Source: Narcine bancroftii (Eukaryota). From it: a stretch of DNA of 64,000 nt. Location of the stretch: assembly GCF_036971445.1 (NCBI RefSeq), contig NC_091476.1, positions 153,822,001-153,886,000 of the forward strand. The letters are read 5' to 3'. This document shows positions 1,936-31,100 of this stretch, in pieces (within the stretch, counting starts at the first letter, position 1; each line of letters starts with the position of its first letter). The notes below the pieces were generated by a model. The model saw only the letters and a list, made by a program, of their open reading frames with translations. It was not told the origin of the DNA and made no database searches. The translations under genes were made by a program, and so were the position numbers.

Positions 1936-2859
1936 GAGGATAAATCAGCTAAATTTCCAAAAAATAATCCATCTATTTTGTGTTTTTTGGTCTAACGAAT
2001 CCATTGGGTATTTAAAATCCAGCCAATCATTCCAAGTTTGACAACTATTGCATCAGTAGATAGCAATACATCCTCCAACATCGACACAAGAGGTGGTTTT
2101 AGTTCTGAACCGTTTATCAATGTATAGTAGCCAGCAAGTTTTCATGCAACACAACACACTGAACTGCCTTTAGAAAACAAAACCAATTATCAACATTGTG
2201 CTGAGTAAATAGGTAGGGTTTTGTGTTATTTGCCCCTCCCACCCTAGTTAAAAAAGTTTTCTTTCTTTAGTGCATGGTTTCAGCCAGTCAACGATGTACT
2301 AGAACTGCAGACCATCTGTGGTCCATGGATTTGTTATGGATTCTCTGTGGCGAAGTCAAACATTACTGATGAATATTCCCACTAAGACAAAAAATCCCAG
2401 TGCTCTGGGAAAGGGCTCTCGTCAACCTCCACTCCACCAGTGATTCTTTGGTTGGATATTGGTGATCTATGGTGCCCAAAGAAAACTCAAGGTAGTATGT
2501 GGGTGCTAAAAGATTGAAAAACATTAATTAAGATCATCCACTGATATTAAGCCAAAGACCAATTCAATATGCAATCACTATTTTAAGAAAACTCCAGTTT
2601 GTTTTTTTTTTTTAAAAAGTCTTGTAATGGCAAGCACTTAATTTCTTAATTGTGTTAATGTTCTGAGATAAAATATTGTCCAAGTCATACCCATATTTTC
2701 CTTTGAGGTCATCCCAAGGGATCTTTTGAAAGTGCAAACAGGATCTTCATTTAAAGTTTCATCCGAAATAGCAGACCTCCCACAATCTTTCGTACTGCCT
2801 TGGAGGGCAGTCTATATTTCTGCTCTGAACTTTCAGGGATAGGACTGAATTCACAACTT

Positions 2860-3840
2860 CAGAATCAGAATTTATTGTCATGAACAAGTCATGAAATTTG
2901 GTGTTTGCAGCAGCGTCTTAGTGCAAACATTCATATTATAACCATCTTACGACATTACTATAAAAATAATGATAATGCATGAAAAGTAGGGCAGTGTCTG
3001 TGGTTCATTGTTCATTCAGGAATCTGATGGCAGTGGGGAAGAAGCTGTCCTTGTGCCACTGAGTGCTCATCTTTAGGCTCCTGTACCTTTTTCCCTGATG
3101 GTAGCAGAGTGAAGAGGGCATGGCCTGGGTGGTGGGGGTCTTTAAGGATAGAGTCTGCTTTCTTAAGACACTGCCTCATGTCAGCGTCCTCAATGGAGTG
3201 AAGTGTCGTGCCTGTGATGTCGCTGACCAAGGTAACAAACCTCAGGAGTTTATTCTTGTCCTGAGAGTTGGCATCTCCTTACCAGACAGTGATGTAATCA
3301 GCCAGAATGCTCTCCACGGTGTGCCTGTAGAAGTTTACGAGAGTCTTTGGTGACATTCCAAATCTCCTCAGACACCTCACAAAGTACAGTAGAGCCACTT
3401 TCAAGCCTTCTGTGTGACTGCATCAACATGGAGGCTCCAGGACAGATCCTTAGAGTTGTTGATACCCAGGAATTTGAATTTATTGACCCTCTCCACTACT
3501 GAGCCTTCAATGAGGACTGAGTCATGTTCCTCTCACTTCCTTCTGAAGTTTACAATCAGCTCCTTGGTTCTGCCAACGTTGAGTGCAAGGTTGTTGTTAT
3601 TACGCCATTCAACGAGCTGATCTATCTCCCTTCTGTGTGCTTCCTCGTTGCCATTTGTGATTCTACTGACAACTGTGGTGTCACCGGCAAACTTGTAGGT
3701 AGCATTGGAATTTTGCCTGGCTACAAGTCATGGGTGTATAATGTGTCGAGCAGTGGGCTAAGCATACAATCTCGGGGTGCACCTGTGTTGATGATCAGTG
3801 AGGAGGAGACGTGGTTTCCAATTCATACTGCAATGGATCT
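2860..3840 (-). mobile_element. Rex1/Babar-type LINE 3' fragment (RT C-terminal part and 3' end)
   Basis: Minus-strand peptides ILKDPHHPGHALFTLLPSGK and IGNHVSSSLIINTGAP typical of this clade; (ttctga)-like tail at about 2860; frameshifted. Confidence 0.85.
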
Positions 3841-3841
3841 G

Positions 3842-4831
3842 TGTTAATATTAAGATTAATGTTCAGCTATATTTTTTTTAACAAATGTGTCTTAGATTAG
3901 TTGTGGGTTGGTTACAGGGTTACACACACAGGTCACAACACATTTACAGAACCATTGTACTCAGAATTCATTCTCATAGCTGATATGTGAAGAAAGACAG
4001 AGCCATAAGGGAACAGACATGTTCTTAATGGAAACTCAAGTACCAGGTGTGGTTCCTAAAAGCAATTAAGCCCCTTGAACAGAGATGAGAAAAAGAGTTT
4101 TGTAGAAATTAAACTAAAACTGTTAAGGATTCCAGTAATGTGATTGCATGGTTTCGAAGAATTGGGACTGACCTCATTGGCAATGTAATCTCACATGATT
4201 TGGAGAAATATATGATCAAATTCAGTCATTTTTGGATCAGTTTACAGAAGTCAAGGCCCTGTTACATACACAGGAGTTTGAACCTTGTGGGAAACAGGGT
4301 TGAATTACGTGTTATGTGTTACTCCAAATAAATGGGAGATACAGAATAAGTAGATTTCAAAAGAGAAGCCTACTTCTGTCTCCAAGATAAAGAGGACAAT
4401 TTAATCATTTGGAAAACAGATTCCAAAGCCTTCATTCAAAAGAAGACAATCTGACCTCCTGGAAAGACAGGAATTGTATTATCCTATCCATAGGAGACGC
4501 ATTTGTGACCCAGAAGATGGTCACTTCTGCTTGAAGAATCTCTCTCAAGGACAACTCATTGAAAGAATTAGGAGTTTAAAGAGACCTGAAGATATGATGT
4601 TTAGAAGCATTTTATTTCTGAACTGAAAATTTGAGACCTTCAAGCAAGTCTAAAATGATGCTGAAGTTTTAAAATTGACTTTTCAGAGTGGGATTTTAAT
4701 CACAGACACAGACACAATTTAGAGTCAAGTTTGAGAAATGTTATGTTATTAATAGTTTAATAAAAATGATTATTTTGAATTTACAATTGCTTGGTGAATT
4801 TTCCATTGCTGTTCTTGTGTTAGTGCTAACA
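3842..4831 (+). mobile_element. Putative solo LTR (about 1 kb)
   Basis: Begins tgtta, ends taaca (TG...CA, 5-bp inverted termini); AATAAA near 4758; lies between Rex1 pieces; no clean TSD seen. Confidence 0.5.
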
Positions 4832-4859
4832 AAATCCCTTTAGTTCCAAACAAAATTTA

Positions 4860-4986
4860 AGGGCTTGTTCGTTTGTAATAGGATTGACTGTGGTCTCCTT
4901 ATGAGAACATCAAGGATCTAGTTGCAAAGGAGTTAGAGGCTTAGAGTTTGTATCTTTTCGACCAGCATTGAGGAAATTATGGTATT
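4860..4986 (-). mobile_element. Rex1/Babar RT fragment, distal half (split by the HAL1-like insertion)
   Basis: Minus strand reads NTIISSMLVEKIQTL...ILDVLIRRPQS, the direct continuation of [11 protein letters not shown] found at 7835-7875. Confidence 0.75.
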
Positions 4987-7834
4987 TTTTTTTTTAAACT
5001 TTATTTAAGATTTTAATAACATATAGGATTACATTAAAAAAAATTAAGAAAATAATAAAATTACAATACAATATCAGTAATCTAAATAAACTATACCCTC
5101 CCCAATAATTATTACACATTAATAACCCGACTCATATTAGTCCAACCCCCCCTTCCCCCCAAAATAAAGAGTGAAGAATTAATAAAGTTAATAATATGAG
5201 AAAAAAACCCACTTACAAAAACAAAAACATAACCGATTAAAATACTAACAAAAAGTAAATACTAAGATATCAGACTTAAAAAACATATTTAAATCAAACT
5301 TAAATGCATATATTTAACAAACAGAGTTAAGATGAAACATATATTTAACTCAAACTTAATATAAAAAATTAGTAAAGTTAGTAACATTATCTATCAAAAA
5401 TTCTTAAACAATAATCAATTCTTAAAAAAATTGTAGCATGAAAAAGATGAAAAAAAACTCTCTATAGAGATAAACCTTCACCAAATATCAACCAACTTCA
5501 CATCTATCATCATATTAGTCACATAAACCACCATCTTAAAACAAAATTCAAACCTCATTAAGCATTGAACAATTCAATTTTAGTACTCTTCCACCATTTA
5601 TCCCTTTTACTCTTGAATAGTTATCCAATAAAAGCTCCAATTCCACATTTAAATATCCCCAATCATTACGTTAAAATTCAGATATCCAAATAAAAACACA
5701 TCTACAACGAAATCTATATCTTCAACAAATGGAGCATAAACCACAAACAAAATTCAAGCCTCATTAAGAATTGTACAATTCAATTTATAACTTTCACCAT
5801 TATTCCCTTCGTTCTATAACTAAAATAGCAAAATAATATACACCAGAATTACCACTCCTTTCACCTTAAAGTTAAAGAAAAAATATTAAAAAAACTTATC
5901 CATCCCATTCATATTTAAATTTCAGATATTCCTTATCTACTGAATAAACTTTACAAAAACCACATCAATTTTTAGTTTTTTTAAACAATCAAATACTTTC
6001 TTATGCTTTTTTTTAAAAAATATATATTTAAAAAAAAAACCCCTTCACTCTTTAATCTAATAATACAAAAAAAAAGGAAAAAAACGGGTAGGAGGTTAAA
6101 AATACCCCCTCCCGTCTAAACCACGCAATGCGGTAACTCCCAAAAAAAAATGGGAGTGGGATAACTCACACGTAGCAGATGACTTTCAGGAAGTGGTGCC
6201 TATCCAGTTCTCTCCCCCAACTCTCACTTCTTAAACTAACATCATCATTATTTAATATCCCTTTTTTAAAAAAAAAAATTAGAAAAATAAAGGGACAACT
6301 CTTCTTTTAATCAGCTCCAACTGCCGAGTCACCATTACAACCATTCCTTCTTGGAGCACGACTCTTTTCTTCCATCTCTTGTCTCCTTAGAGATCGCGGC
6401 GGACTATGTCTCTGTTGAAACTGAGTAATTGGCAGCTCTTGAGCAAATGCTATAGCTTCCTTTGGAGAATCAAAGAACTTTGGTTGGCAACCATCTTGAA
6501 AAACCTTCAAAACAGCTGGATATCTAAAGGTTGCCTTGTAACCTTTTTTCCACAACAACTCTTTAGCAGGATTGAATTCCCGTCGTTGGAACATAACTTC
6601 TTGACTCAAATCCGCATAGAAGAAAACTCAATTATTTTGAATCATCAAGGGTGATTTTCTCTGTTGTGCATTTCTAATAGCCACTCGTAAAATTATTTCT
6701 CTGTCATAATAATTCAAGCAACGAACCAAAACAGGTCTTGGACTTTGACCTGAAATAGGTCTTCTACGCAAGGCTCTGTGAGCACGTTCCAGTATTATAC
6801 CTTCCGGGAAATGTTCTTGACCCAGCACCTGCGGAATCCATTCAGTAAAAAATTTTCTTGGGTCTGGTCCCTCCATACCTTCCGGCAAACCAATAATCTT
6901 TATATTGTTCCGTCTGGATTGGTTTTCCAAATAATCAATCTTTTTCACCAAATTTTTATTTTGAGTTTGTAAGTCTTCGACCATTTTGGTCACATCAAAA
7001 ACTTGATCCCGTATTTAGTCTATATCTTTTTCACACAAATTAAATTTATCTCTCACTTCAAGCTTAAAAGCTCCAAACTCAGCCATCTGTTGAGAATGTA
7101 TTTTCACCAAAGTATTAAACCTAGTACCAAGTTCAGTCATAATCTTGGATAATCCCTGCATTGTATAAGATAATTTAGATTCAAGATTCACAAAAATCTT
7201 TTCAATTGGAAGAGATTTTGGCTCAACAGATTCCTGCTTCTTCTCCAAAGGATCTTCTATTCCTTCCTTCATTCTGGTTGCCATCCTTGTAGTACGACTG
7301 CGTGTGGAAACCCCAGCCACAGCCTCTCCAGCAATGACTGGAGGACACTGGCCGGGGTTTTCCCCAGTCCATAATGTATTAAATTCTCCCAGTACATCAA
7401 GTTGTATAGGTTCTTGTATCTCAAGAGATGCAGTTTGCAGCGCCACCTCTACAATTGACAAATGCCTTTGAGTAACTCTTTGTTCTAAAGGCTGTTTGGC
7501 GCCCTCTTTAGGGGGCTCTACCGATGTAACATAGAGCTCTACATCCGAACACTGTATCTCTCTCCTGGGATCCATTTCACGCCGAGTCCTGGTGTCTTTC
7601 CTGTAGGTAGGCTCCAAAACTTGAACTTTTGGAAAATGTAGTTTTTTGATGATCTGTTGACATCTTTTTTTGCTCTTTTCCACCAATTGTACCATCATAA
7701 GTTAAATTAACAGCACTGAAATTATCTAAACTTTTAAAGAATTTTAACAGGCATTTCTAGACAAAACAGTAAGATAGAGTCAGGAGAGAACTGGAAGGCA
7801 CGTCTGATCCTTACGCCATCTTGCCACGCCCCCC
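4987..7834 (-). mobile_element. Full-length ORF1-only L1 derivative (HAL1-like non-autonomous retrotransposon)
   Basis: 5' end ggggggcgtggcaagatggcg (L1-type start); single ORF1; about 1.3 kb T-rich 3' region without ORF2; AATAAA plus poly(A) at about 4987-5005; 15-bp TSD ggaaat(t/g)atggtatt at 4972-4986 and 7835-7849. Confidence 0.88.
6307..7698 (-). pseudogene. L1 ORF1p (Transposase_22-type coiled coil/RRM/CTD), 463 codons with two in-frame premature stops
   Basis: ORF-track pieces 7015-7698, 6628-6993 and 6307-6609 are all in one frame, separated by TAA (7015-7017) and TGA (6628-6630); motifs LENQSRRNNIKIIGLPEG, ILERAHR, PRPVLVR, FFYADLS, RYPAVLKV. Confidence 0.92.
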
Positions 7835-7967
7835 GGAAATGATGGTATTAAAGGCCGAGCTGTAGTCGATAAAGTGCAGCCGTATGTATGAATTGCTGTT
7901 TTTGAGGTGATCGAGAGCTGAGTGGAGAGCCAGTGATATTGCATCTGCTGTGCAGCGATTGTGACAA
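7835..7967 (-). mobile_element. Rex1/Babar RT fragment, proximal half
   Basis: Minus strand reads [17 protein letters not shown]...[11 protein letters not shown]. Confidence 0.8.
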
Positions 7968-8713: not shown

Positions 8714-9659
8714 ATTGTGACAAGGAGAATTGGCTTCACCACAATTGCAGCTGCTGTATAGCTAATGGCACTTTCAAACAAACATTTACTAAATCTCAGA
8801 TAAAAAGTTGATCACTAATTAGTGATCACATTGCATGACAAAGTGCTGAACAGATCTAACAGTTTGAAGTAGTTCCAAACTTCCTATCCAGATGATTTGG
8901 TTCCTACTTTTCATTAAAAGTACAGAGACATAACATTTCCCTAGTTATTTAACATTAGACAAGACAAGGATTTTATTGTACTGCAAAATCCCCATTATCC
9001 AGAATTCAAGCAACCAGCAAAAGAAATGTGGAAAATAAATACATTTAAAAAATACAAAAGTTTAAAATCGGCACCCCTTGCGAGCAGTTTGACAATCATG
9101 CAACATTTAATCTCAAGCAACTGCCAAATTCACTTATCCAGCATCTACAAATCCTCAGATGCCACGACCAGGGCTTTTACATATTTGCCATTTTGTTCCC
9201 ACATCTCATCCAAAGCAGAGCCAAGCTCACACTATTCAACATGTACTAACTAAACAGATTAGGATTCTATGTTTTACTGTCCAGAGGTACAACCCATTTT
9301 AAAGTTTCTGTGGCCTTCACAACCAGCAGCTACTCAGATCATGAGAAATTATTTCTAGTCAAGATTCTGTTCAAATGGCTTTGAAAATTATTGAATACAA
9401 ACACTTGCCAGGTACAAGAGTTGGGTAACAAACCTCCCTTTAAATAATTTGTTTTAAATGTATAGCTGATTTTTTTTTTTTAGGATGATAACCTTTGAGG
9501 CTTTTTTTAAAAAACAATGCTTAAAATTATTTTTCCACGTAGGAATCACTACATACAATTGTGCGTTTAGATAACCTAGATGACTGTGAAACCTATACAA
9601 TAACACTTGTGTTATACTGATGTACACTGGTCAAATTTTAACTAAACCAGAATTTAAAA

Positions 9660-10195
9660 AATATCTTCTAATATCATCAGACCTAAACAAAGTTATATAA
9701 GAAATAAAGAATTTGGACTTGATTTGGATGGAGCACAAAAAAGATTTGTTATGATAGCCCTAGCTGTAGCAAAAAAATGTATTATATCAACCTGGAAATT
9801 AGAAGACAACTTGAGAATACAACAGTGGTACATAGAAATGAATAAATGTATTCCATTAGAAAAAATAACATACAAGTTAAGAAATAACATCACAATATTC
9901 AAACAAATATGGGAACCGTACATGAAATACAATAGAGAAATCCTACCACCTAAAATGACAGAAGGAGAAGACAACGAAATGAACTGACTCAGTATATAAA
10001 AGTAAAAGATAAAAATTTCTTGTTTAATTTATTGTGACGACATTGTTTAACGGATTTAATGTATCTTATAAATTGAACTTTCAATAAATGGGAAGGGAGG
10101 GAGAGGGAGGGAGAGAATATAGTCAAGAGAAAAATGTCTATGTATTTTGGTCAGTATGGTTTATTGTGTGAAAAATTTAAAAAAATTAAAAAAAT
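9660..10195 (+). mobile_element. 5'-truncated L1 3' end
   Basis: ORF2 C-terminal peptide IALAVAKKCIISTWK...QIWEPYM, same family as the 28187-32164 copy; A-rich tail. Confidence 0.85.
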
Positions 10196-10217
10196 GATCT
10201 TCCTGAAGATCCTCAAG

Positions 10218-14160: not shown

Positions 14161-15067
14161 GCAAACACAATGCTGGAGAAACTCAGCAAGTCAAACAATG
14201 GACTACTGAGCAAAAATAAAGATTCATAAACAACATTTCAGCTTTACCCCTTCATCAAAATAGGGACAAAATGGTGGGGGGGGAGGGAAGGGGAAGATGC
14301 ACAGTCCCACAGGCAAGAGGTCATAGGTGGATCAGGGAGGGAGGGCACACCAGCAAACTGTGGGGTGGGGGGGGAGGAGGAGGGTTCTGTGAATGGAAAG
14401 GGAAGAGGTTGGAGAGCCAGAGGACAGAGTGATGGAGAAGAAGGAGGAAGAACAGGGAATAGGCTAATGGAAAATTGACGTTAATCCCATCCGGTTGGAC
14501 AGTGCTGAGATGGAAAATTAGGTGTTGCTCCTCCAATTTACAGGTAGTCTTGGTTTGACACAACATGAGGCCATGGACAGATATGTCAGAACTGGAGTGG
14601 GGCACTGTCTACATCAATGGCAGGGATCTCCCAGTGGCCAAACATTTCAATTCCATGCTCCACTCCCATCCTGACATGTCTGTCCATGGCCTCATGCACT
14701 GTCAAACCATGTCCACGTGTAAATTGGAGGAGCAACACTTCATTTTCCATCTTGGCACTCTCCAGCTGGATGGCACTAACGTTGACTTCTCCAGTTTCTT
14801 CCTCTCTCTTCTCCATCACTCTGTCTTCTTTCCTCCAGCCCTCTCCCTTATCTACCTATTACCTCCAGCCTGTGGGACTGTGCTCCTCCCCTTGCCCCTC
14901 CCACCCCCATCATTTTGTTGGGGCACCTGCCCACATTTTGTCCATACTTTGATGAAGGACTCAAGCCTGAAAAGTTGATTATATATCTTTATTTTTGCTA
15001 CATAAAATACACTGTTTGACCTGCTGAGTTTCTACTTCAACTATGGGGTCTGTAGACTTTCGTGTTT
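14161..15067. mobile_element. Penelope-like element insertion: two 3' ends in inverted orientation
   Basis: GIY-YIG C-terminal peptide on both strands (plus PVAKHFNS...KLEEQHFIFHLGTLQLDG; minus SVHGLMLCQ...KLEEQHLIFHLSTVQPDGINV); 13-bp TSD tgctc(t/c)tgttgtt at 14148-14160 and 15068-15080. Confidence 0.85.
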
Positions 15068-21289: not shown

Positions 21290-21975
21290 CAATATCTTTT
21301 GGTAGTTGCTGTGCATTATTTTGGTTATAATGCCAAATTTTTCCTGTTCATGAAAAGATTGCAACAGCCTTCTGTAGCCTTAAAATTATCACTGAGGTCT
21401 GGGTGCAACTTGGCCCACTGTAGAGCAAATGTTCTTATTTTGTTTCAGGTGACTATATACCAATCTTGCTTCTGTTCATCTACCCTTTCTGAAACATGAT
21501 TTTCCAACTCTGGTCAATGAGTGATTCCTTTTCTCAAAGAACAATGCCTTTTTGGTATTTTTCTTAAAGTCTCTTCTTTCTTCCTCCAATCTCTTATTTC
21601 TCATGCACATCAAATTTTCTTTCAGCAGCTCGGTTGTTGGTTTTCTTGGCCACTTATATTACTTTCAACTTAAAACTATTTTTGTTTTGTGGTTCATTAT
21701 GTTGATGGACCCTCCATGATAGCCATCACCTCCAGCCAACGCCCAGCAGATTAATCCGCACGATCCATGGGTTTTGTCGTATACTCCAGTCAACGGCCCT
21801 TCTCAGGCATCGCAGGCTTTGGGGGTTGACTTATACACTGGTCAATGGGGCATCTCAGGCAGCCAGAAAATTGGAATCGACTTGTATGCCGGACATACCA
21901 TAAAACCCTTAAAATGAGGCTGAAAAAGGGTGTCGAATTATTCACTGATCGACTTATACGCTAAAATAAATGGTA
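21290..21975 (-). mobile_element. Degenerate pogo/Tigger-like DNA transposon, 5' part
   Basis: Minus strand about 21590-21680 reads FKLKVI*VAKKTNNRAAERKFDVHEK (Brinker-type HTH of pogo transposases); TIR-like end gacttatacgctaaaataaatggta at 21975. Confidence 0.65.
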
Positions 21976-23367
21976 AATTGATCCTATCTGGTTTAATTAT
22001 GATTGTCTAGATCATAACATTACTTAGATATGATACCAATTGTTGGTATAATGTAACTCAAGTGGTTTATATTCATAATTATTTTAACAAATGATATCAA
22101 ATTAACAATTATGGATGAAATTTGTTGGAAAGTGCATTTATGTTAATTATATGATATGTATATGTTATGACATTCCTTTGTTATATTAGTAGATCATGTA
22201 TATAGGATTATTATGTTAAACTCAATAAAAATATTTTAAAAAGAAAGTACCATTCTGAGGTGCCATAGATATTTCTGCCATTGAAGGAGGCCCTTTGTCC
22301 CATCATATCTATTGCAATCAGAAGAGTACTCTAGTCAGGTTCACTTCCCAGCTGAAGTCTGTAGCACTGACTCACAGTGTCTTCACTGACTGCTTTAAGA
22401 GTAAAAAAAAAGGAAAGTGTGCAGAGACTGTGATTGAAATAAAAACACAAGGCTGGAGAAACTCAGCAGGTCAAACAGTGTACTTTATAGAGCAAAGATA
22501 AAGATACCTAACCAACGTTTCAGGCTTGAGCCCTTCGTCAAGGTAACTTGACTGCTTTGCAGGGAAGGGGGACCATAAACATTGAGCAAAGTCCTAAAGG
22601 AGCAAGAGGCTGTTGTAATGGATAGAACAGTTGATAGGAGCCAAGGAGATATTTTTCATCCACAGACTGGTAGGAGTCTGCAGCTCACTGTCTGGGGGAA
22701 GTGGAAGGAGAAATTCTCATCACAGTGAAGACACTGTGAGTCAGTGCTACAGACTTCAGCTGGGAAATGAACCTGACTAGAGTACTCTTCTGATTGCAAT
22801 AGATATGATGGGACAAAGGGCCTCCTTCAATGGCAGAAATATCTATGGCACCTCAGAATGGTACTTTCTTTTTAAAATATTTTTATTGAGTTTAACATAA
22901 TAATCCTATATACATGATCTACTAACATAACAAAGGAATGTCGTAACATATACATATCAAATAATTAATATAAATGCACTTTCCAACAAATTTCATCCAT
23001 AATTGTTAATTTGACATCATTTGTTAAAATAATTATGAATATAAACCACTTGAGTTACATTATACCAACAATTGGTATCATATCTAAGTAATGTTATGAT
23101 CTAGGACAATCAATAATTAAACCAGATAGGATCAATTTACCATTTATTTTGGCGTATAAGTTGATCAGTGAATAATTCCACACCCTTTTTCAGCCTCATT
23201 TTATGGTATGTCCGGCATACAAGTCGACTCCAATTTTCTGGCTGCCTGAGATGCCCCATTGACCAGTGTATAAGTCGACCCCCAAAGCTCGCGATACCTG
23301 AGATGGGCCGTTGACTGGAGTATACGACAAAACCCATAGATCGCGCGGATTGATCTGCTGGGCGTTG
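21737..23367. repeat. Inverted duplication 1: arms 21737-22388 and 22723-23367, 334-bp spacer
   Basis: Arms are reverse complements along their length with scattered substitutions and a short indel; each arm is a patchwork of pogo, L1 tail and CR1 pieces. Confidence 0.95.
22397..22548 (-). mobile_element. Short Penelope-like terminal fragment
   Basis: Same family text as 14161-14260 (gctggagaaactcagcaggtcaaacag...aacgtttcaggcttgagcccttcgtcaagg); flanked by tgactgcttt at 22387-22396 and 22549-22558. Confidence 0.75.
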
Positions 23368-23599
23368 ATTTCTCTACTACTGATTACATAAGAAAACATA
23401 AAGAATATTTTATGATTTCAGCCCCCTTTAAATGAGTTGTGCCCCCACTTGACAATGGTTACACTACAATAAAACCTAACTATCAAACTCGTCACAGGGA
23501 GATTCAAGTCCAGGGTTCCCTTCTATAAAAGCAATCCAAATAAATTATTTAAAATAGGAAAAAACATTGAAAACAACTTAATCATGGAATGAAATGAAA

Positions 23600-26364
23600 T
23601 TATTTAATTCTTTATTAACTAGTCATGATAAACAAGTAGCTGCATCCCCAACATGACAGTATTTTCCTTCTCCTTACACTAAAAGAATCATAAAGTGTTA
23701 CAACACGGAAGCAAAGACCTCTTCTCTGTGCTGATCTTGTTATCTACTTGCACTTATCCTATTTACCTGCATTTATCTCATATCCCTCTACAGTTCCTAT
23801 CCTTGTACTTGTCCAAATGTCTTTTTAAACATTGCAATTGTACCCACCTCTGGCAGCTTGTTCCATGTACTTACCGCCCTCTTGTGTGAAAATGGTGCTT
23901 CTCAGGTCCCTATTAAATCTTTTACCTCCCATCTTAAATCCATGCCCTCTAGTCTTAGACTCCCTTAACCTGGGGAATAAAAGACTATGACTACTTAACT
24001 TTGGCATGTCCCTCATGATTTTATATCCCTCATACACCAATTTCAGCCAACCATTGATGACAAAATGGGCCAATTGACTATTTTAACCCTATCTGGGGCA
24101 TTGCTATAATGCAGCAAGGTCTCACTAACCAACACAGAAGCACAAAATTCACCAGATGACGAAGCTCAGTAATTTTGGTCTCAGATATACCCCAACTGAA
24201 AACATTGGACAACAATTTTTTTTTCAAAAGGTTTTCTTTCTGAAAAAAATTGGGAATTATGATAGGCCACTTCAAGCTGAACACAGATACTTTCAGATTT
24301 GTTGCATCATGTAGGAAGATGGAGAAACATAAAATCAACTTTTATTTAATTTAGCATGTTTATTTGCATGATGATGCAAACACACTGCATTAGCTCAACT
24401 GACCTAAAAATGTTTTGCCGCTGATTTTTGTTTGTCCTCAGCCTTTGATGCTTCTCATGTTAGTGTCCAACAATACTCAGCCAGCATTGATGGATTCCAG
24501 TTGCCCTGATATTGCTTTTCCATTGTCACAATGTCCTGGTGAAATCTTTCACCGTTGCACCAAAATCAGCATTTCTGCTGTATTGAATATTCCTGAAGAC
24601 AATAAAGGCTATTGTTAAGTACACTCACTGTGCTATTGGCTGAAGAACATATGCATCAACATGTGTTCAATCTATAATCAATGTAATACACAGCATTTTT
24701 ATATGTGAGCTGCTTTTATAGTCTGTCTGCATTTATCCTGACTAAGCATGCCCAGGCCTAAGATAACATTTGCATAGTACCTGCACTGAGTGCATGCCCA
24801 GGCACGCTTGGACTAAACAAAACAGTTTGCTCTGTGGGCAATATACTAGTAGACTTTTGACAGGAAATCACAAAAAAAAAGTACATTATAGGAAATGTTT
24901 AAGGCTATTTTCATGATCAGCAGCCAACAATCCATAAAATACACCTAAAAGTCTTCAGGAAGCAAAATCTTCATTGTCCAATGTAAGCAGATAACAGTTA
25001 GAAATGTGAATCGATTAACAATAGACATTTGAAAATAAAATTCTCCTTTGATGAGGAGTGAACGTTTGCTCCATGTTCTTGAGTGTTTATTGAATTGTTT
25101 TGGCAGTTAGTCACTATCTATTTCTGTACAGCTTGCCTGTGGTTGAAAGGCTTCAGGTTGAGTCAGTGCAATTAGGGCACGGTTGTTGCTCGAAACTATG
25201 CACTCATTTGAGTTGTTGTTTTCTTTTATTGCTTTCCTTTGTATCATCTAACAGGCCATTGCAGAACAAAACTTGTTGAACGCTAGGATGGTGTTTAACT
25301 TGGAGAAAGTCGAGCTGTGTCGATGCCATGCATTTTGTTATTCTGGAAAACTGAGGTTTTGGATTTAGGAGGTGCCAAGTTAAGCTTTAATTAAATTTAA
25401 ATTTACTTGTCACGGAATATGTAGTGCAAGGTTCTTCTACAAACTGACTATTAAGATATCTCTAACATTCATACAGGCATACAAAAAGAATAATTACAGG
25501 GTAGAGCATTGCATTGAGGGGAAAGATCAATTAGCACTAAGCAAGGGCAGTGTGTTATGGGATTCATACAGGAGTCAGATGGCTGCAGGATAGAAAATCT
25601 CTTTAAGCCTGTTGGTGTGTGCTTTCACGCTCTTATGCTTTCTCCATGATCAGAGAAGGGAATGTGTGTAGAGTGTGTCAGGCCCTTCAATATGCTGGCT
25701 ACCTTTCCAAACCAGTAGAATATATACATGGAGTCATAGCACTATGTTCTGAACTACAATTACTACCTTCTGTAACTACTTTTGATCATGTGCCAAGATG
25801 TTGCTAGGCCGCATTGTGATACATCCAAGAAGTATGATTTAGATGGTGCTCCTGAAGAAATTTGTATCTACTGATAAAGATAGGGTTAAAATAGTCAATT
25901 GGCCCATTTTGTCATCAATGGTTGGCTGAAATTGGTGTATGAGGGATATAAAATCATGAGGGACATGCCAAAGTTAAATAGTCATAGTCTATTATTCCCC
26001 AGGTTAAGGGAGTCTAAAACTAGAGGGCATGGATTTAAGATGGGAGGTAAAAGATTTAATAGGGACCTGAGGAGCACCATTTTCACACAAGAGGGTGGTA
26101 AGTACGTGGAACGAGCTGCCAGAGGTGGGTAGAATTGCAATGTTTAAAAAGACATTTGGGCAAGTACAAGGATAGGAACTGTAGAGGGATAAATGCAGGT
26201 AAATAGGGTAAGTGCAAGTAGATAACAAGATCAGCACAGAGAAGAGGTCTTTGCTTCCATGTTGTAACACTTTATGATTCCTTTAGTGTAAGGAGAAGGA
26301 AAATACTGCCATGTGGGGGATGCAGCTACTTGTTATCATGACTAGTTAATAAAGAATTAAATAA
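23600..26364. repeat. Inverted duplication 2: arms 23600-24094 and 25878-26364, about 1.8-kb spacer
   Basis: Arms are reverse complements (ORF-track peptides 23825-24073(-) and 25899-26132(+) are nearly identical); arms include a CR1 3' fragment plus flanking sequence on both sides. Confidence 0.95.
24203..24983 (-). mobile_element. Internally deleted CMC/Chapaev-3-like DNA transposon, copy 1
   Basis: Termini cattggacaa / ttgtccaatg; flanks aaa/taa; minus-strand transposase C-terminal remnant ERFHQDI...QGNWNPSMLAEYCWTL. Confidence 0.75.
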
Positions 26365-28186: not shown

Positions 28187-31100
28187 TTTTTTTTAATTTT
28201 TATTTTTCACACTATGAACCATATCAACCAAAATATGTACAAACATTTCTCATTAAATTTACACAGTGGTCTTTTCTCCCCTTTTTTCCCCCTTGCCCTC
28301 CCTCTCCTCTACCCATCCCCCTCCAAAACCCTTAAATATTCAACATATACAATACAATAAAACCATAAAGCAATATCTTCACACAAAGGAAAATAAACAA
28401 GAAAAATTTGTCATCTATTTATTACACACTGAATCTAGTTATTTTGTCTTCTTATCATTTTCATTCTCATTTTAGGGGATGGAGGTCGTAGGCAAGCTCT
28501 CTCTGATATGTTCCATGTATGGTTCCCAAATTTGTTCAAACATTGTGACTTTATTTTTTAAATTATATGTTATTTTTCCCAATGGAATACATTTATTCAT
28601 TTCCATGTACCATTGCTGTATACTCATGCTCTCTTCCATTATCCAAGTTGACATTATACATTTTTTTGTATTCGCTAAGGCTATCATAATGAATTTTTTT
28701 TGCACTTTATCCAATTTGAGGCCTAATTCTCTACTTCATATGTTACTTAAATCAGATACTAAATGAAATTACAAAAAATAACATACCAAAAAAACCAGAG
28801 ATATTTCTTTGAAATATATAGAATTCTTCCCAACTTGTATGTAATGCTGTTCCCATTTCCTTCTTACAGTGAAAAATATCTATCTGATAATGTTGAATCC
28901 CATTTTTTAATTTTTGAAGAGTAATATATACCCTGTGTAACCAATTATACTGTATCATGCGTAACCTTGTGTTTATTGTATTTTTCATAGTTCCAGAACA
29001 TAACTTTTCCCATACTTCATTTTTTACCTTTATGTTTAGATCCTTTTCCCACTTCTGCTTAGGTTTATAGTTTATTTCATTTTCCTTATATTGCAGCTTA
29101 ATGTACATGTTGGTTATAAATCTTTTAATTATCATTGTGTCTGCAATCACATATTCAAAGCTGCTTCCTTCAGGTAATCTCAAGCTGTTTCCCAATTTAT
29201 CCTTTAAATATGCTTTCAATTGATGATATGCAAACATTGTGCCATGAGTTATTCCATATTTGTACTTCAACTGTTCAAATGTTAATAAATTATTTCCAAA
29301 AAAACAATTTTCTATTCTTTTGATTCCTTTTCTCTCCCATTCTCTAAAGGAAAGGTTGTCTATTGTAAAAGGGATTAGCAGATTTTGCATCAATAGTAAT
29401 TTTGGTATTTGATAATTTGATTTTTTTCCTTTATAAGTGGATCTTCTTTCATGTATTAAGTAAATGATGCAGTACTGGTGAGCTTTTATATTACACCAGC
29501 TTTTCATCTCACCTATAAAGTATACGTTCTGGTATCTTTTCCCCTATTTTATATAGTTCTATCTTAGTCCAATCTGGTTTTTCCCTTGTCTAGTAAAAAT
29601 CTGATAAATACCTTAATTGTGGAGCTCTATAATAATTTCTAAAATTTGGTAACTGCAAACCACCTCTCTGCTAATTTATCTAATGCTACCCTTGGATTCC
29701 TCCCTTTCCACAAGAATTTCCTTATTATTCTCTTTTGTTCATTAAAGAATTTCTCTGTTAAGGGAATTGGTAATGATTGAAATAAGTATTGTATCCTTGG
29801 GAAGAGATTCATTTTAATGCAATTTACCCTCCCTATCAACGTTAGTGTGTAATTCTTTCCAATGTTCTAAGTCTTCCTGCAATTTCTTTATTAGTAACTG
29901 ATAATTTAATTTGCACAGGTGGCTTAAATTATTATCCAATCTAATACCTAGGTATCGGATTGCTTGTGTTTGCCATTTAAATGGAGATTCTTTTTTTAAA
30001 TTCTGTATAATCCGCATTACTCATTGGCATCACTTCACTTTTATTTGCGTTGATCTTGTACCCCAAAATTTCTCCATATTCCTTCAATTTCTTATGTAAT
30101 TCTTTTACTAATACCTCTGGTTCTGTTAGGTATACTATGATGTCATCTGCAAATAAGCTGATTTTATACTCCTTCCCCTTTATTTTTATCCCTTTTATTT
30201 TATTTTCTGTTCTTATCAGTTCTGCCAAAGGTTCTATTGCTAAGGCAAACAATGAAGGGGATAGTGGACATCCCTGTCTAGTTGACCTACTTAATTTAAA
30301 GTGACTCAATACATATCCATTTACTCCTACCTTCACCAAAGGTCCATTATATAATGCTTTAATCCAATTTATGTATTTTTCTGGTAGATTGAACTTCTGT
30401 AATACTTTAAATAAGTAATTCCACTCTAGTCTGTCAAAGACTTTTTCTGCGTCTAGAGGAACAGCCACTGTTGGTTTCTTATTTCCTTGAACTGCGTGGA
30501 TTAGATTAATAAGTTTACAGACATTATCCGCTGTTCGTCTTTTCTTAATACATCCAGTTTGATCTTGTTTTACTATTTTTGGTACACAGTCGGCCAATCT
30601 GTTTGCTAATAATTTCGCTATTATCTTATAGTCTGAGTTAAGTAGAGATATTAGTCTATATGATGCTGGTGTTAATGGATCCTTCCCCGTCTTTGTTATT
30701 ACTGTAATTATTGCTGTCTTACATGAATCTGGCAAGTTTTGTGTTTCTTCTATCTGGTTCATTACTTCCAGGAGAGGAGGAATTAATAATTCTTTAAATG
30801 TTTCATAAAATTCTATGGAAATCCAATGTGTTTTATTGTTCGGCAGCTTTTTTAATATATCCTGTGCTTCCTCTATTTCAAATGGTTTTTTTAGTTTGTT
30901 TTGTTCCTCATCTTGCAATTTCAGCAGTTCAATTTTAGCTAAAAATTCCTTTATTTTATCATCTTTCCCTCATTTTCAGTTTGGTATAATTGTTCATAAA
31001 ATTCCTTAAAATTTTCATTAATCTCTGTTGGGTTATATGTAATTTGTTTGTCCTTTTTCCTTGATGCCAGTATCATTCTTTTAGCTTGTTCTGTTTTAAG

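What the first reader, a model, noticed from the sequence alone, without database searches (positions are those of the whole stretch)
4972..7849. Complete ORF1-only 'half-L1' retrotransposon with TSD in a probable cartilaginous fish
Seen: a 2.85-kb minus-strand unit with an L1-type 5' end, one 463-codon ORF1 damaged by only two nonsense changes and no frameshift, about 1.3 kb of non-coding T-rich 3' sequence, AATAAA, poly(A) and a 15-bp TSD. The TSD splits a Rex1 RT exactly inside [12 protein letters not shown], so the unit inserted as one piece rather than being a later ORF2 deletion across flanks. Established: ORF1-only HAL1 elements mobilised in trans by L1 ORF2 are described mainly from mammals. 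Inference: an independently evolved non-autonomous family that keeps its own ORF1p, with an unusually long N-terminal extension.
Basis: partly seen in the sequence, partly recalled or inferred. Interest (0 to 1): 0.8.

Follow-up and report, generated by a model that had tools for sequence, protein, structure and literature searches.

The report
Half-L1 retrotransposon that swaps its head
This is one of more than a thousand copies, in an electric ray genome, of a jumping gene that lost its copying enzyme but kept its RNA-packaging protein, and that has replaced its front half with the front half of a complete LINE-1 in the same genome.

Summary
A 2,848-bp minus-strand unit has an L1-type 5' end, a 463-codon ORF1 with two stops, AATAAA, poly(A) and a 15-bp TSD (one mismatch) inside an RT fragment. 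It is a family: 1,134 exact tail 22-mers, and 52 of 55 copies have distinct TSDs at TY/AAAA-like sites.

Three corrections. (1) The 'non-coding' tail contains a decayed piece of the ORF2 endonuclease plus an L1 3'UTR. (2) Full-length L1s with the same head exist (4 of 40 sites picked by the 5' end), so the long N-terminus is not specific to the half-element. (3) The element is a mosaic. ORF1 and spacer follow that L1 at 81 of 83 diagnostic sites; the remnant follows another lineage at 48 of 59. One locus carries the same tail under an older head whose ORF1 stayed under purifying selection (pN/pS 0.42) while the remnant decayed.

Best reading: a long-lived HAL1-like lineage, moved in trans by L1 ORF2p, that recaptured its 5'UTR-ORF1 cassette from an autonomous L1. 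Two further ORF1-only families occur in the genome. This is a new variant of a known kind; Repbase and Dfam could not be checked.

The parts
7835..7849 (-). 5' copy of the 15-bp target-site duplication
   Evidence: one mismatch to the 3' copy
7699..7834 (-). 5'UTR (136 bp) with G-run start; internal promoter inferred
   Evidence: 94% head identity to full-length L1s L181-L183; 525 exact 30-mers in the genome
6307..7698 (-). ORF1, 463 codons; this copy has stops at codon 228 (7015-7017) and codon 357 (6628-6630)
   Evidence: open for 463 aa in L004, L006, L025; similar to human L1 ORF1p, E 4e-7 single sequence, E 7e-32 profile
7207..7698 (-). N-terminal extension (codons 1-164), predicted mostly disordered; shared with autonomous L1s of this clade
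   Evidence: pLDDT <50 over most of 20-164 in the model of L004 ORF1; alignment
6913..7206 (-). long helix, coiled coil (codons 165-262)
   Evidence: helix 165-262
6424..6912 (-). RRM and CTD (codons 263-425)
6012..6306 (-). inter-ORF spacer of the A-type autonomous L1; ends in a T/A tract where head and tail are joined (about 6005-6030)
   Evidence: 17 of 17 diagnostic sites follow the A-type L1; alignment stops near element position 1810-1820
5607..6009 (-). decayed ORF2 endonuclease remnant, part 1; begins about codon 19, ORF2 start absent, 4 stops
   Evidence: 76% to B-lineage L1, 69-70% to A-type; stops counted
5539..5606 (-). 68-bp internal duplication of remnant sequence
   Evidence: also present in the older-headed locus L203
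5404..5538 (-). endonuclease remnant, part 2
   Evidence: 74% to B-lineage L1
4996..5327 (-). L1 3'UTR of B-lineage type with AATAAA at 5000-5005
   Evidence: 73% over 387 columns to B L1; only short matches to A-type L1
4987..4995 (-). poly(A) tail, 9 A
4972..4986 (-). 3' copy of the target-site duplication
7850..7960 (-). interrupted host RT-like fragment, upstream side; continues at 4971-4880 and again near 3830-3500
   Evidence: continuous frame across the site; Rex1 label recalled, not tested

Best explanation
A HAL1-like non-autonomous LINE. Its RNA is made from the L1 5'UTR and translated into ORF1p (disordered N-terminus, coiled coil, RRM, CTD) that packages its own RNA. ORF2p from a full-length L1 then inserts it by target-primed reverse transcription at TY/AAAA-like sites. 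The lineage began as an internal deletion of a B-lineage L1 that kept the start of the endonuclease and the 3'UTR. It kept transposing while that remnant decayed and its ORF1 was held by selection. It later replaced 5'UTR, ORF1 and spacer with those of the A-type autonomous L1, most likely by a template switch in the T/A tract, and exchanged ORF1 sequence with A-type L1s at least once more. SHOWN: family, TSDs, target preference, origin of the tail, mosaic structure, an older-headed relative with the same tail, purifying selection on that older ORF1. INFERRED: transcription, translation, cis action of ORF1p, trans use of ORF2p, template switching as the route, and which L1 supplies ORF2p.
For: Family: 37 of 40 scored places near full length at 93-96%; 1,134 and 1,297 exact tail 22-mers; 52 of 55 copies with distinct 10-19 bp TSDs, median 16, T at -2 in 37 of 52 and A at +1 in 42 of 52. 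Mosaic: at sites where A-type and B-type L1 differ, the element follows A-type at 64 of 66 (ORF1 core) and 17 of 17 (spacer), but B-type at 42 of 50 and 6 of 9 (remnant) (Fisher p 1e-25). A-type L1 is sister to the B group in both the ORF1 and RT trees, so it is not the recombinant in those regions. Older form: L195/L202/L203 has the same tail (92%, sister to all A tails, 100/100) under a head 85% like B2 L1 and about 75% like this element, and keeps the full spacer and a decayed ORF2 start. Its ORF1 has pN/pS 0.42 (49/683 vs 31/181, p 1e-4), and 9 of 125 nonsynonymous C sites changed to T, against 19 of 24 in its remnant. The remnant's decay is strand-biased (37 of 49 C>T vs 5 of 85 G>A), unlike single-copy changes and toward the composition of fourfold sites in the L1s (C 3-5% in 6 of 7 copies), so it decayed while being copied. 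Second exchange: the +84 head subfamily shares about 18 sites with autonomous L183 and not with the +99 autonomous copies. L187 is a single truncated chimera of B-type ORF1 on this tail.
Against: The AU test did not reject grouping the remnant with A-type endonuclease (p 0.148). The older-headed form is one locus, interrupted before its 3' end, so no TSD was seen, and an unsampled autonomous L1 could be its recent head donor. Within present A-type copies selection on ORF1 is weak: whole ORF p 0.38, RRM+CTD 2N:5S vs 133:40, p 0.011, one of four partitions tested, and shared variants may come from the autonomous donor. Two of 40 copies lack most of ORF1, one with a TSD (L122, L152). Only 7 of 72 copies are open from the first ATG and 26 of 72 from Met42. 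All three A-type full-length copies read have a broken ORF2. The +84 exchange rests on one autonomous copy and its direction is unresolved.
Confidence: 0.75

Rival explanations
1. Same structure and history, but ORF1 is now a passenger. The element needs only the promoter and poly(A), borrows both proteins, and its ORF1 looks intact because the head was captured recently.
For: Whole-ORF test not significant; N-terminal shared variants pN/pS 1.2. ORF1-less copies L122 (with TSD) and L152 exist. Copies are only about 1-1.4% from their subfamily majority.
Against: Older head under purifying selection while its remnant decayed. RRM+CTD p 0.011. Shared ORF1 indels in frame 5 of 5 vs 4 of 14 private, p 0.011; this is weak, because two shared events in the A-run (one out of frame) and two private ones at the stop were left out. 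Family C RRM pN/pS 0.29, p 0.01, whole ORF not significant.
Confidence: 0.15
2. Plain HAL1 origin: one internal deletion of the A-type L1, followed by very fast decay of the tail, with no head capture.
For: Head 94% to A-type L1; AU test p 0.148; the remnant is on a long branch.
Against: Remnant follows the B lineage at 48 of 59 diagnostic sites; 3'UTR is B-type; the same tail exists under a B2-like head with the undeleted spacer.
Confidence: 0.04
3. Reverse flow: the A-type ORF1 evolved in the half-element and was donated to an autonomous L1.
For: Half-elements outnumber autonomous copies about 31 to 4. L183 shares its ORF1 5' part with the +84 half-elements and its ORF1 3' end with the other autonomous copies.
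Against: ORF1 and RT trees agree for A-type L1. The half-element lacks spacer and ORF1 segments that autonomous copies have. Still open for the +84 subfamily alone.
Confidence: 0.05
4. One-off truncated or internally deleted ordinary L1, or an assembly artefact.
For: Copies that continue into ORF2 exist.
Against: More than 1,100 tail matches, same junctions, distinct TSDs.
Confidence: 0.01

Closest known systems
HAL1 (half-L1) of placental mammals and marsupials (Bao and Jurka 2010; not held, known here through passages in PMC3627910, PMC5753468, PMC5786205, PMC13756887)
   Same: L1-derived, ORF1 only, poly(A), TSD; ORF1 coding capacity maintained; several independent origins.
   Different: Host is a cartilaginous fish; copies are young (about 1-1.4% from subfamily majority); the tail keeps a recognisable ORF2 remnant; head and tail come from different L1 lineages. 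Independent origin, not orthologous.
ORF1-present bipartite non-autonomous LINEs: HeT-A (Jockey clade), Ag-Sponge (CR1 clade) (PMC5786205, passage)
   Same: 5' and 3' parts of a LINE joined by internal deletion, encoding only ORF1p.
   Different: Other LINE clades; HeT-A is telomere-specific (recalled), whereas this family is dispersed at TY/AAAA-like sites.
Recombinant mouse L1 families Tf and Gf (PMC3600994, passages)
   Same: Exchange of 5'UTR and ORF1 between L1 families; RT strand switching is one proposed route; an older observation there has a young 3' end recruiting an older 5' end.
   Different: Those are autonomous. Here the recipient is non-autonomous, and an old decayed 3' end carries a young 5' end.
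Non-mammalian vertebrate L1 (PMC5381506, section 7 and Table 2)
   Same: Short 5'UTR, long inter-ORF region, about 6 kb full length.
   Different: ORF1 is 1,392 nt or more here, against 780-1,059 nt in fish and 891-1,158 nt in mammals. That is a trait of this ray L1 clade, autonomous copies included.

Membership tests
HAL1-type ORF1-only L1 derivative | ORF1 homologous to L1 ORF1p (coiled coil, RRM, CTD) | tested here: met
   Pfam PF02994 itself was not hit by P0001
HAL1-type ORF1-only L1 derivative | No functional ORF2 | tested here: met
   no ORF2 start, remnant with 4 stops, no RT region
HAL1-type ORF1-only L1 derivative | Amplified as a unit: many copies, same ends, poly(A), independent TSDs | tested here: met
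HAL1-type ORF1-only L1 derivative | Derived from a parental L1 in the same genome | tested here: met
   two parents: A-type for the head, B lineage for the tail; their EN and RT domains confirmed by Pfam
HAL1-type ORF1-only L1 derivative | ORF1 kept by purifying selection in the non-autonomous state | tested here: inconclusive
   met for the older head (one locus) and for RRM regions; whole-ORF test in present copies not significant
HAL1-type ORF1-only L1 derivative | Mobilised in trans by L1 ORF2p, with ORF1p acting in cis | not testable with these tools
   only indirect: target preference and TSD length
Mammalian HAL1 families (HAL1, HAL1B, HAL1M8) by descent | Descent from mammalian L1 | tested here: not met
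   nearest relatives are ray L1s in the same genome, then fish and frog ORF1s at about 26-36%
Autonomous L1 | ORF2 with endonuclease and RT | tested here: not met
   about 3.1 kb of ORF2 absent (B positions 2628-5745)
Named Repbase or Dfam family | Match to a deposited consensus | not testable with these tools

The most novel reading that the evidence does not exclude
Head replacement is how ORF1-only L1 parasites persist. An old tail survives turnover of autonomous lineages by repeatedly capturing the 5'UTR-ORF1 cassette of the L1 that is active, which keeps its promoter and ORF1p matched to the helper. In this ray several such lineages (A, C and the B/C chimera D) outnumber their helpers and may also pass ORF1 segments back to autonomous L1s.
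Probability: 0.4. Interest if true: 0.75.

Novelty: new variant of a known kind. Interest (0 to 1): 0.58.

Why it matters
HAL1-type elements are described from mammals in every passage I read. A young, abundant example in a ray suggests the strategy is open to vertebrate L1 generally. The decayed endonuclease remnant is a built-in neutral control inside the same RNA, so the long-standing inference that HAL1 needs its own ORF1p can be tested by sequence alone. The mosaic shows a non-autonomous lineage renewing its promoter and ORF1 from a helper. The remnant also records a strong sense-strand C>T drift in copied, unconstrained sequence, which bears on the open question of what sets LINE base composition (PMC7140322, passages).

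Tried and rejected
Pfam on the window's ORF1 pieces and on intact P0001 gave no significant L1 family; homology rests on PDB sequence matches and the model. The AU test was not significant. A search with the N-terminal 230 aa found only two proteins of the same family; it missed known 50% siblings, so it says nothing about absence elsewhere. The window's own ORF2-like fragment at 9658-9987 belongs to another high-copy family with no blastn match to the element; its relatives L031-L040 were not analysed. Expression: no RNA holder listed. Four runs laid as contigs cover the element in pieces and their RNA status is only guessed, so they are no evidence on expression. Bao and Jurka 2010 was not held. 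Earlier findings of this scan: none. Literature searches listed no report of an ORF1-only L1 in a cartilaginous fish or of head capture by a HAL1; most subscription papers, Repbase and Dfam are not covered, and no supplements were read. A larger sample of the wider clade was not obtained: 20 sites were read, not the 40 planned. An editing enzyme as cause of the C>T bias was considered (24 of 27 after A/T vs 5 of 14 after G/C) but cannot be separated from RT error or selection on composition.

Full report
OBSERVATION. The unit lies at 4987-7834 on the minus strand (2,848 bp). It starts with a G-run and GCGTGGCAAGATGGCG. ORF1 runs from 7698 to 6307, 463 codons plus stop, with stops at codons 228 and 357 and no frameshift. 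It ends in AATAAA and nine A. The 15-bp TSD has one mismatch. The flanks read as one RT-like frame across the site; the name Rex1 is recalled and untested.

HOST. The nearest named proteins (93-94%) are labelled Narcine bancroftii, an electric ray, by their source. Two such proteins match G000 at 100%.

IT IS A FAMILY. Of 3,353 candidates 40 were scored; 37, this copy included, cover nearly the whole element at 93-96%. Exact matches in the genome: 525 for a 5' 30-mer, 1,134 for a 22-mer at the start of the tail and 1,297 near the 3' end; reversed-pattern controls gave 0. These words are present in 10-12 of 30, 65 of 72 and 56 of 72 fetched copies. That suggests roughly 1,700 copies, a majority near full length; this is a rough estimate from a sample biased to well-kept copies. 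Of 55 copies reaching both ends, 52 have a TSD of 10-19 bp (median 16), all different, at TY/AAAA-like sites. Crossed flank pairs give 0 of 870 at 13 bp or more, against 27 of 30 true pairs. Copies are about 1.0-1.4% (non-CpG) from their subfamily majority, minimum 0.47%.

ORF1p. An open copy (L004, P0001) matches human L1 ORF1p (E 4e-7; profile E 7e-32). The model shows a mostly low-confidence region 1-164, one helix 165-262, then RRM and CTD folds. ORF1 is longer than any in Table 2 of PMC5381506, but full-length L1s here have the same extension, so it is a clade trait.

THE TAIL IS NOT PLAIN NON-CODING DNA. Sibling ORF1 P0004 led to full-length 6.1-kb L1s (family B) with endonuclease and RT domains. 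Against these the tail resolves into spacer, about 600 bp of decayed endonuclease sequence with a 68-bp duplication, and a 3'UTR. The element is an internal-deletion derivative lacking about 3.1 kb of ORF2 and the ORF2 start.

I took 40 of the first 42 sites listed for the 5' 30-mer; the two skipped were already held and are ORF1-only. Result: 25 end in this tail with a TSD call, 6 carry the tail but are interrupted or cut short, 4 continue into ORF2, 3 are only 5' stubs and 2 are other families. Both forms exist, and the half-element is the majority. Three of the four were fetched whole (L181-L183): about 6.2 kb, ORF2 in pieces, TSDs visible in two.

MOSAIC. The head (element 1-1820) is 94% identical to these A-type L1s, the same as copy-to-copy identity. 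The remnant is only 69-74% identical to them and their 3'UTR barely matches. At sites that separate A-type from B-type L1, the element follows A-type at 64 of 66 in the ORF1 core and 17 of 17 in the spacer, but B-type at 42 of 50 and 6 of 9 in the remnant (p 1e-25). A tree-based AU test on the remnant was not significant (p 0.148). A-type L1 is sister to the B group in both ORF1 and RT trees, which points to the half-element as the recombinant.

THE OLDER FORM. Among 18 new loci picked by the tail word alone, 14 had the A head, 2 were truncated, one (L187) was a truncated chimera with B-type ORF1, and one (L195) had a different head. L195/L202/L203 shares the tail (92%, same duplication, sister to all A tails at 100/100). 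It keeps the whole spacer and a decayed ORF2 start, and has a B2-like ORF1 that is open from its ATG for about 390 codons. It is one locus, interrupted before its 3' end.

SELECTION. On that older head, ORF1 changes are 49 of 683 nonsynonymous and 31 of 181 synonymous sites (pN/pS 0.42, p 1e-4; coiled coil 0.80, not significant). Its remnant has 4 stops and pN/pS 1.55. The synonymous divergence of ORF1 (0.17) is about the remnant's overall divergence (43 of 255 sites), as expected if this head travelled with the tail throughout. In present A-headed copies (72) the signal is weaker: whole ORF p 0.38, RRM+CTD p 0.011, N-terminus pN/pS 1.2. Shared ORF1 length variants are in frame, a weak test as explained under the rivals. 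Seven of 72 copies are open from the first ATG and 26 from Met42; an A-run near codon 10 is an indel hotspot.

DECAY WHILE BEING COPIED. In the remnant 37 of 49 ancestral C became T but only 5 of 85 G became A. Single-copy changes are not skewed that way (ORF1 C>T 0.25, G>A 0.35 per site). Fourfold sites of ORF2 in the full-length L1s hold 3-5% C in six of seven copies (21% in L169). I infer that the remnant drifted during many rounds of retrotransposition and not as a dead genomic copy. The cause (RT error, deamination, or selection on RNA composition) is open.

MORE THAN ONE EXCHANGE. Heads come in +99, +84, short and further-deleted forms. The +84 half-elements share about 18 sites with autonomous L183 and not with the three +99 autonomous copies, while carrying the same tail. 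The direction is unresolved.

MECHANISM. Inferred from established L1 biology and the anatomy: transcription from the 5'UTR, ORF1p binding its own RNA, ORF2p borrowed in trans, target-primed insertion. Head capture is most simply an RT template switch in the T/A tract at the end of the spacer; strand switching is one of three routes discussed for mouse L1 mosaics (PMC3600994). Which L1 lends ORF2p is not known. A-type and B-type copies are of similar divergence, the head matches A and the 3'UTR matches B.

COMPARISON AND NOVELTY. It works like HAL1 and meets the structural tests, but is not descended from mammalian HAL1. Passages read place HAL1 in mammals (PMC5753468, PMC3627910, PMC13756887) and class it with HeT-A and Ag-Sponge (PMC5786205). 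Seen: passages of those four, passages and section 7 of PMC5381506, passages of PMC3600994 and PMC7140322; Bao and Jurka 2010 only as cited. Eight searches listed no ray or shark example and no HAL1 head capture, but Repbase, Dfam and most subscription papers were out of reach.

VERDICT. New variant of a known kind. Interest 0.58; the bolder reading, serial head capture as a persistence strategy, has probability about 0.4 and would deserve about 0.75.

Noticed in passing
L056-L070, L172, L173: Family C: a second ORF1-only family (about 2.8 kb, ORF1 about 50% to this one) with its own tail holding a 200-bp decayed piece from late in ORF2 and a B-type 3'UTR. Same C>T skew (8 of 12 vs 5 of 31). 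15 of 15 loci fetched shared the tail.
   Followed up: partly
L076, L077, L082-L085, L087-L090: Family D: B-type ORF1, a 640-bp endonuclease piece, then the 3' part of family C; about 3.65 kb; 10 of 20 B-ORF1 loci. Another head-on-old-tail chimera that amplified.
   Followed up: partly
L078, L139, L166, L176, L179: Further internally deleted or ORF1-plus-3'-end L1 copies with other heads; unknown whether amplified.
   Followed up: no
L174, L177, L178: Elements with the same 5' 19-mer but no match to families A, B or C, and a poly(A) signal 1.4-1.9 kb downstream; possibly another short non-autonomous family. The 19-mer has 3,104 exact matches.
   Followed up: no
L071-L075, L163, L165, L168, L169: B and B2 L1s are nearly identical at the start of the endonuclease but 7-10% apart in RT and ORF1, suggesting recombination among the autonomous lineages too.
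   Followed up: no
window 9658-10200 (+) and 28339-28748 (-): 3' fragments of other L1-like families (ORF2 C-terminus-like); 4,858 candidates in the genome.
   Followed up: no
L204:1-1275 of the minus-strand reading: The flank upstream of the truncated chimera L187 has a 150-aa frame that resembles the transmembrane part of a retroviral envelope (resemblance recalled, not tested).
   Followed up: no
P0007, P0011: Public gene models fuse ORF1 fragments of this L1 clade to a GalNAc transferase and to GPR139; probably annotation artefacts.
   Followed up: no
L184: End of the A spacer and the tail sit directly behind endonuclease-like sequence of an unrelated L1; insertion or chimera.
   Followed up: no
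window 21737-26364 and 14398-14849: Nested inverted repeat pairs (about 650 and 490 bp, 95-96%) and a 450-bp imperfect palindrome; probably DNA transposon or MITE copies.
   Followed up: no
run X5 on window 4987-7834: A run labelled as a second organism has low-depth contigs over 26 of 30 bins, tail included; whether it is another species is unknown.
   Followed up: no
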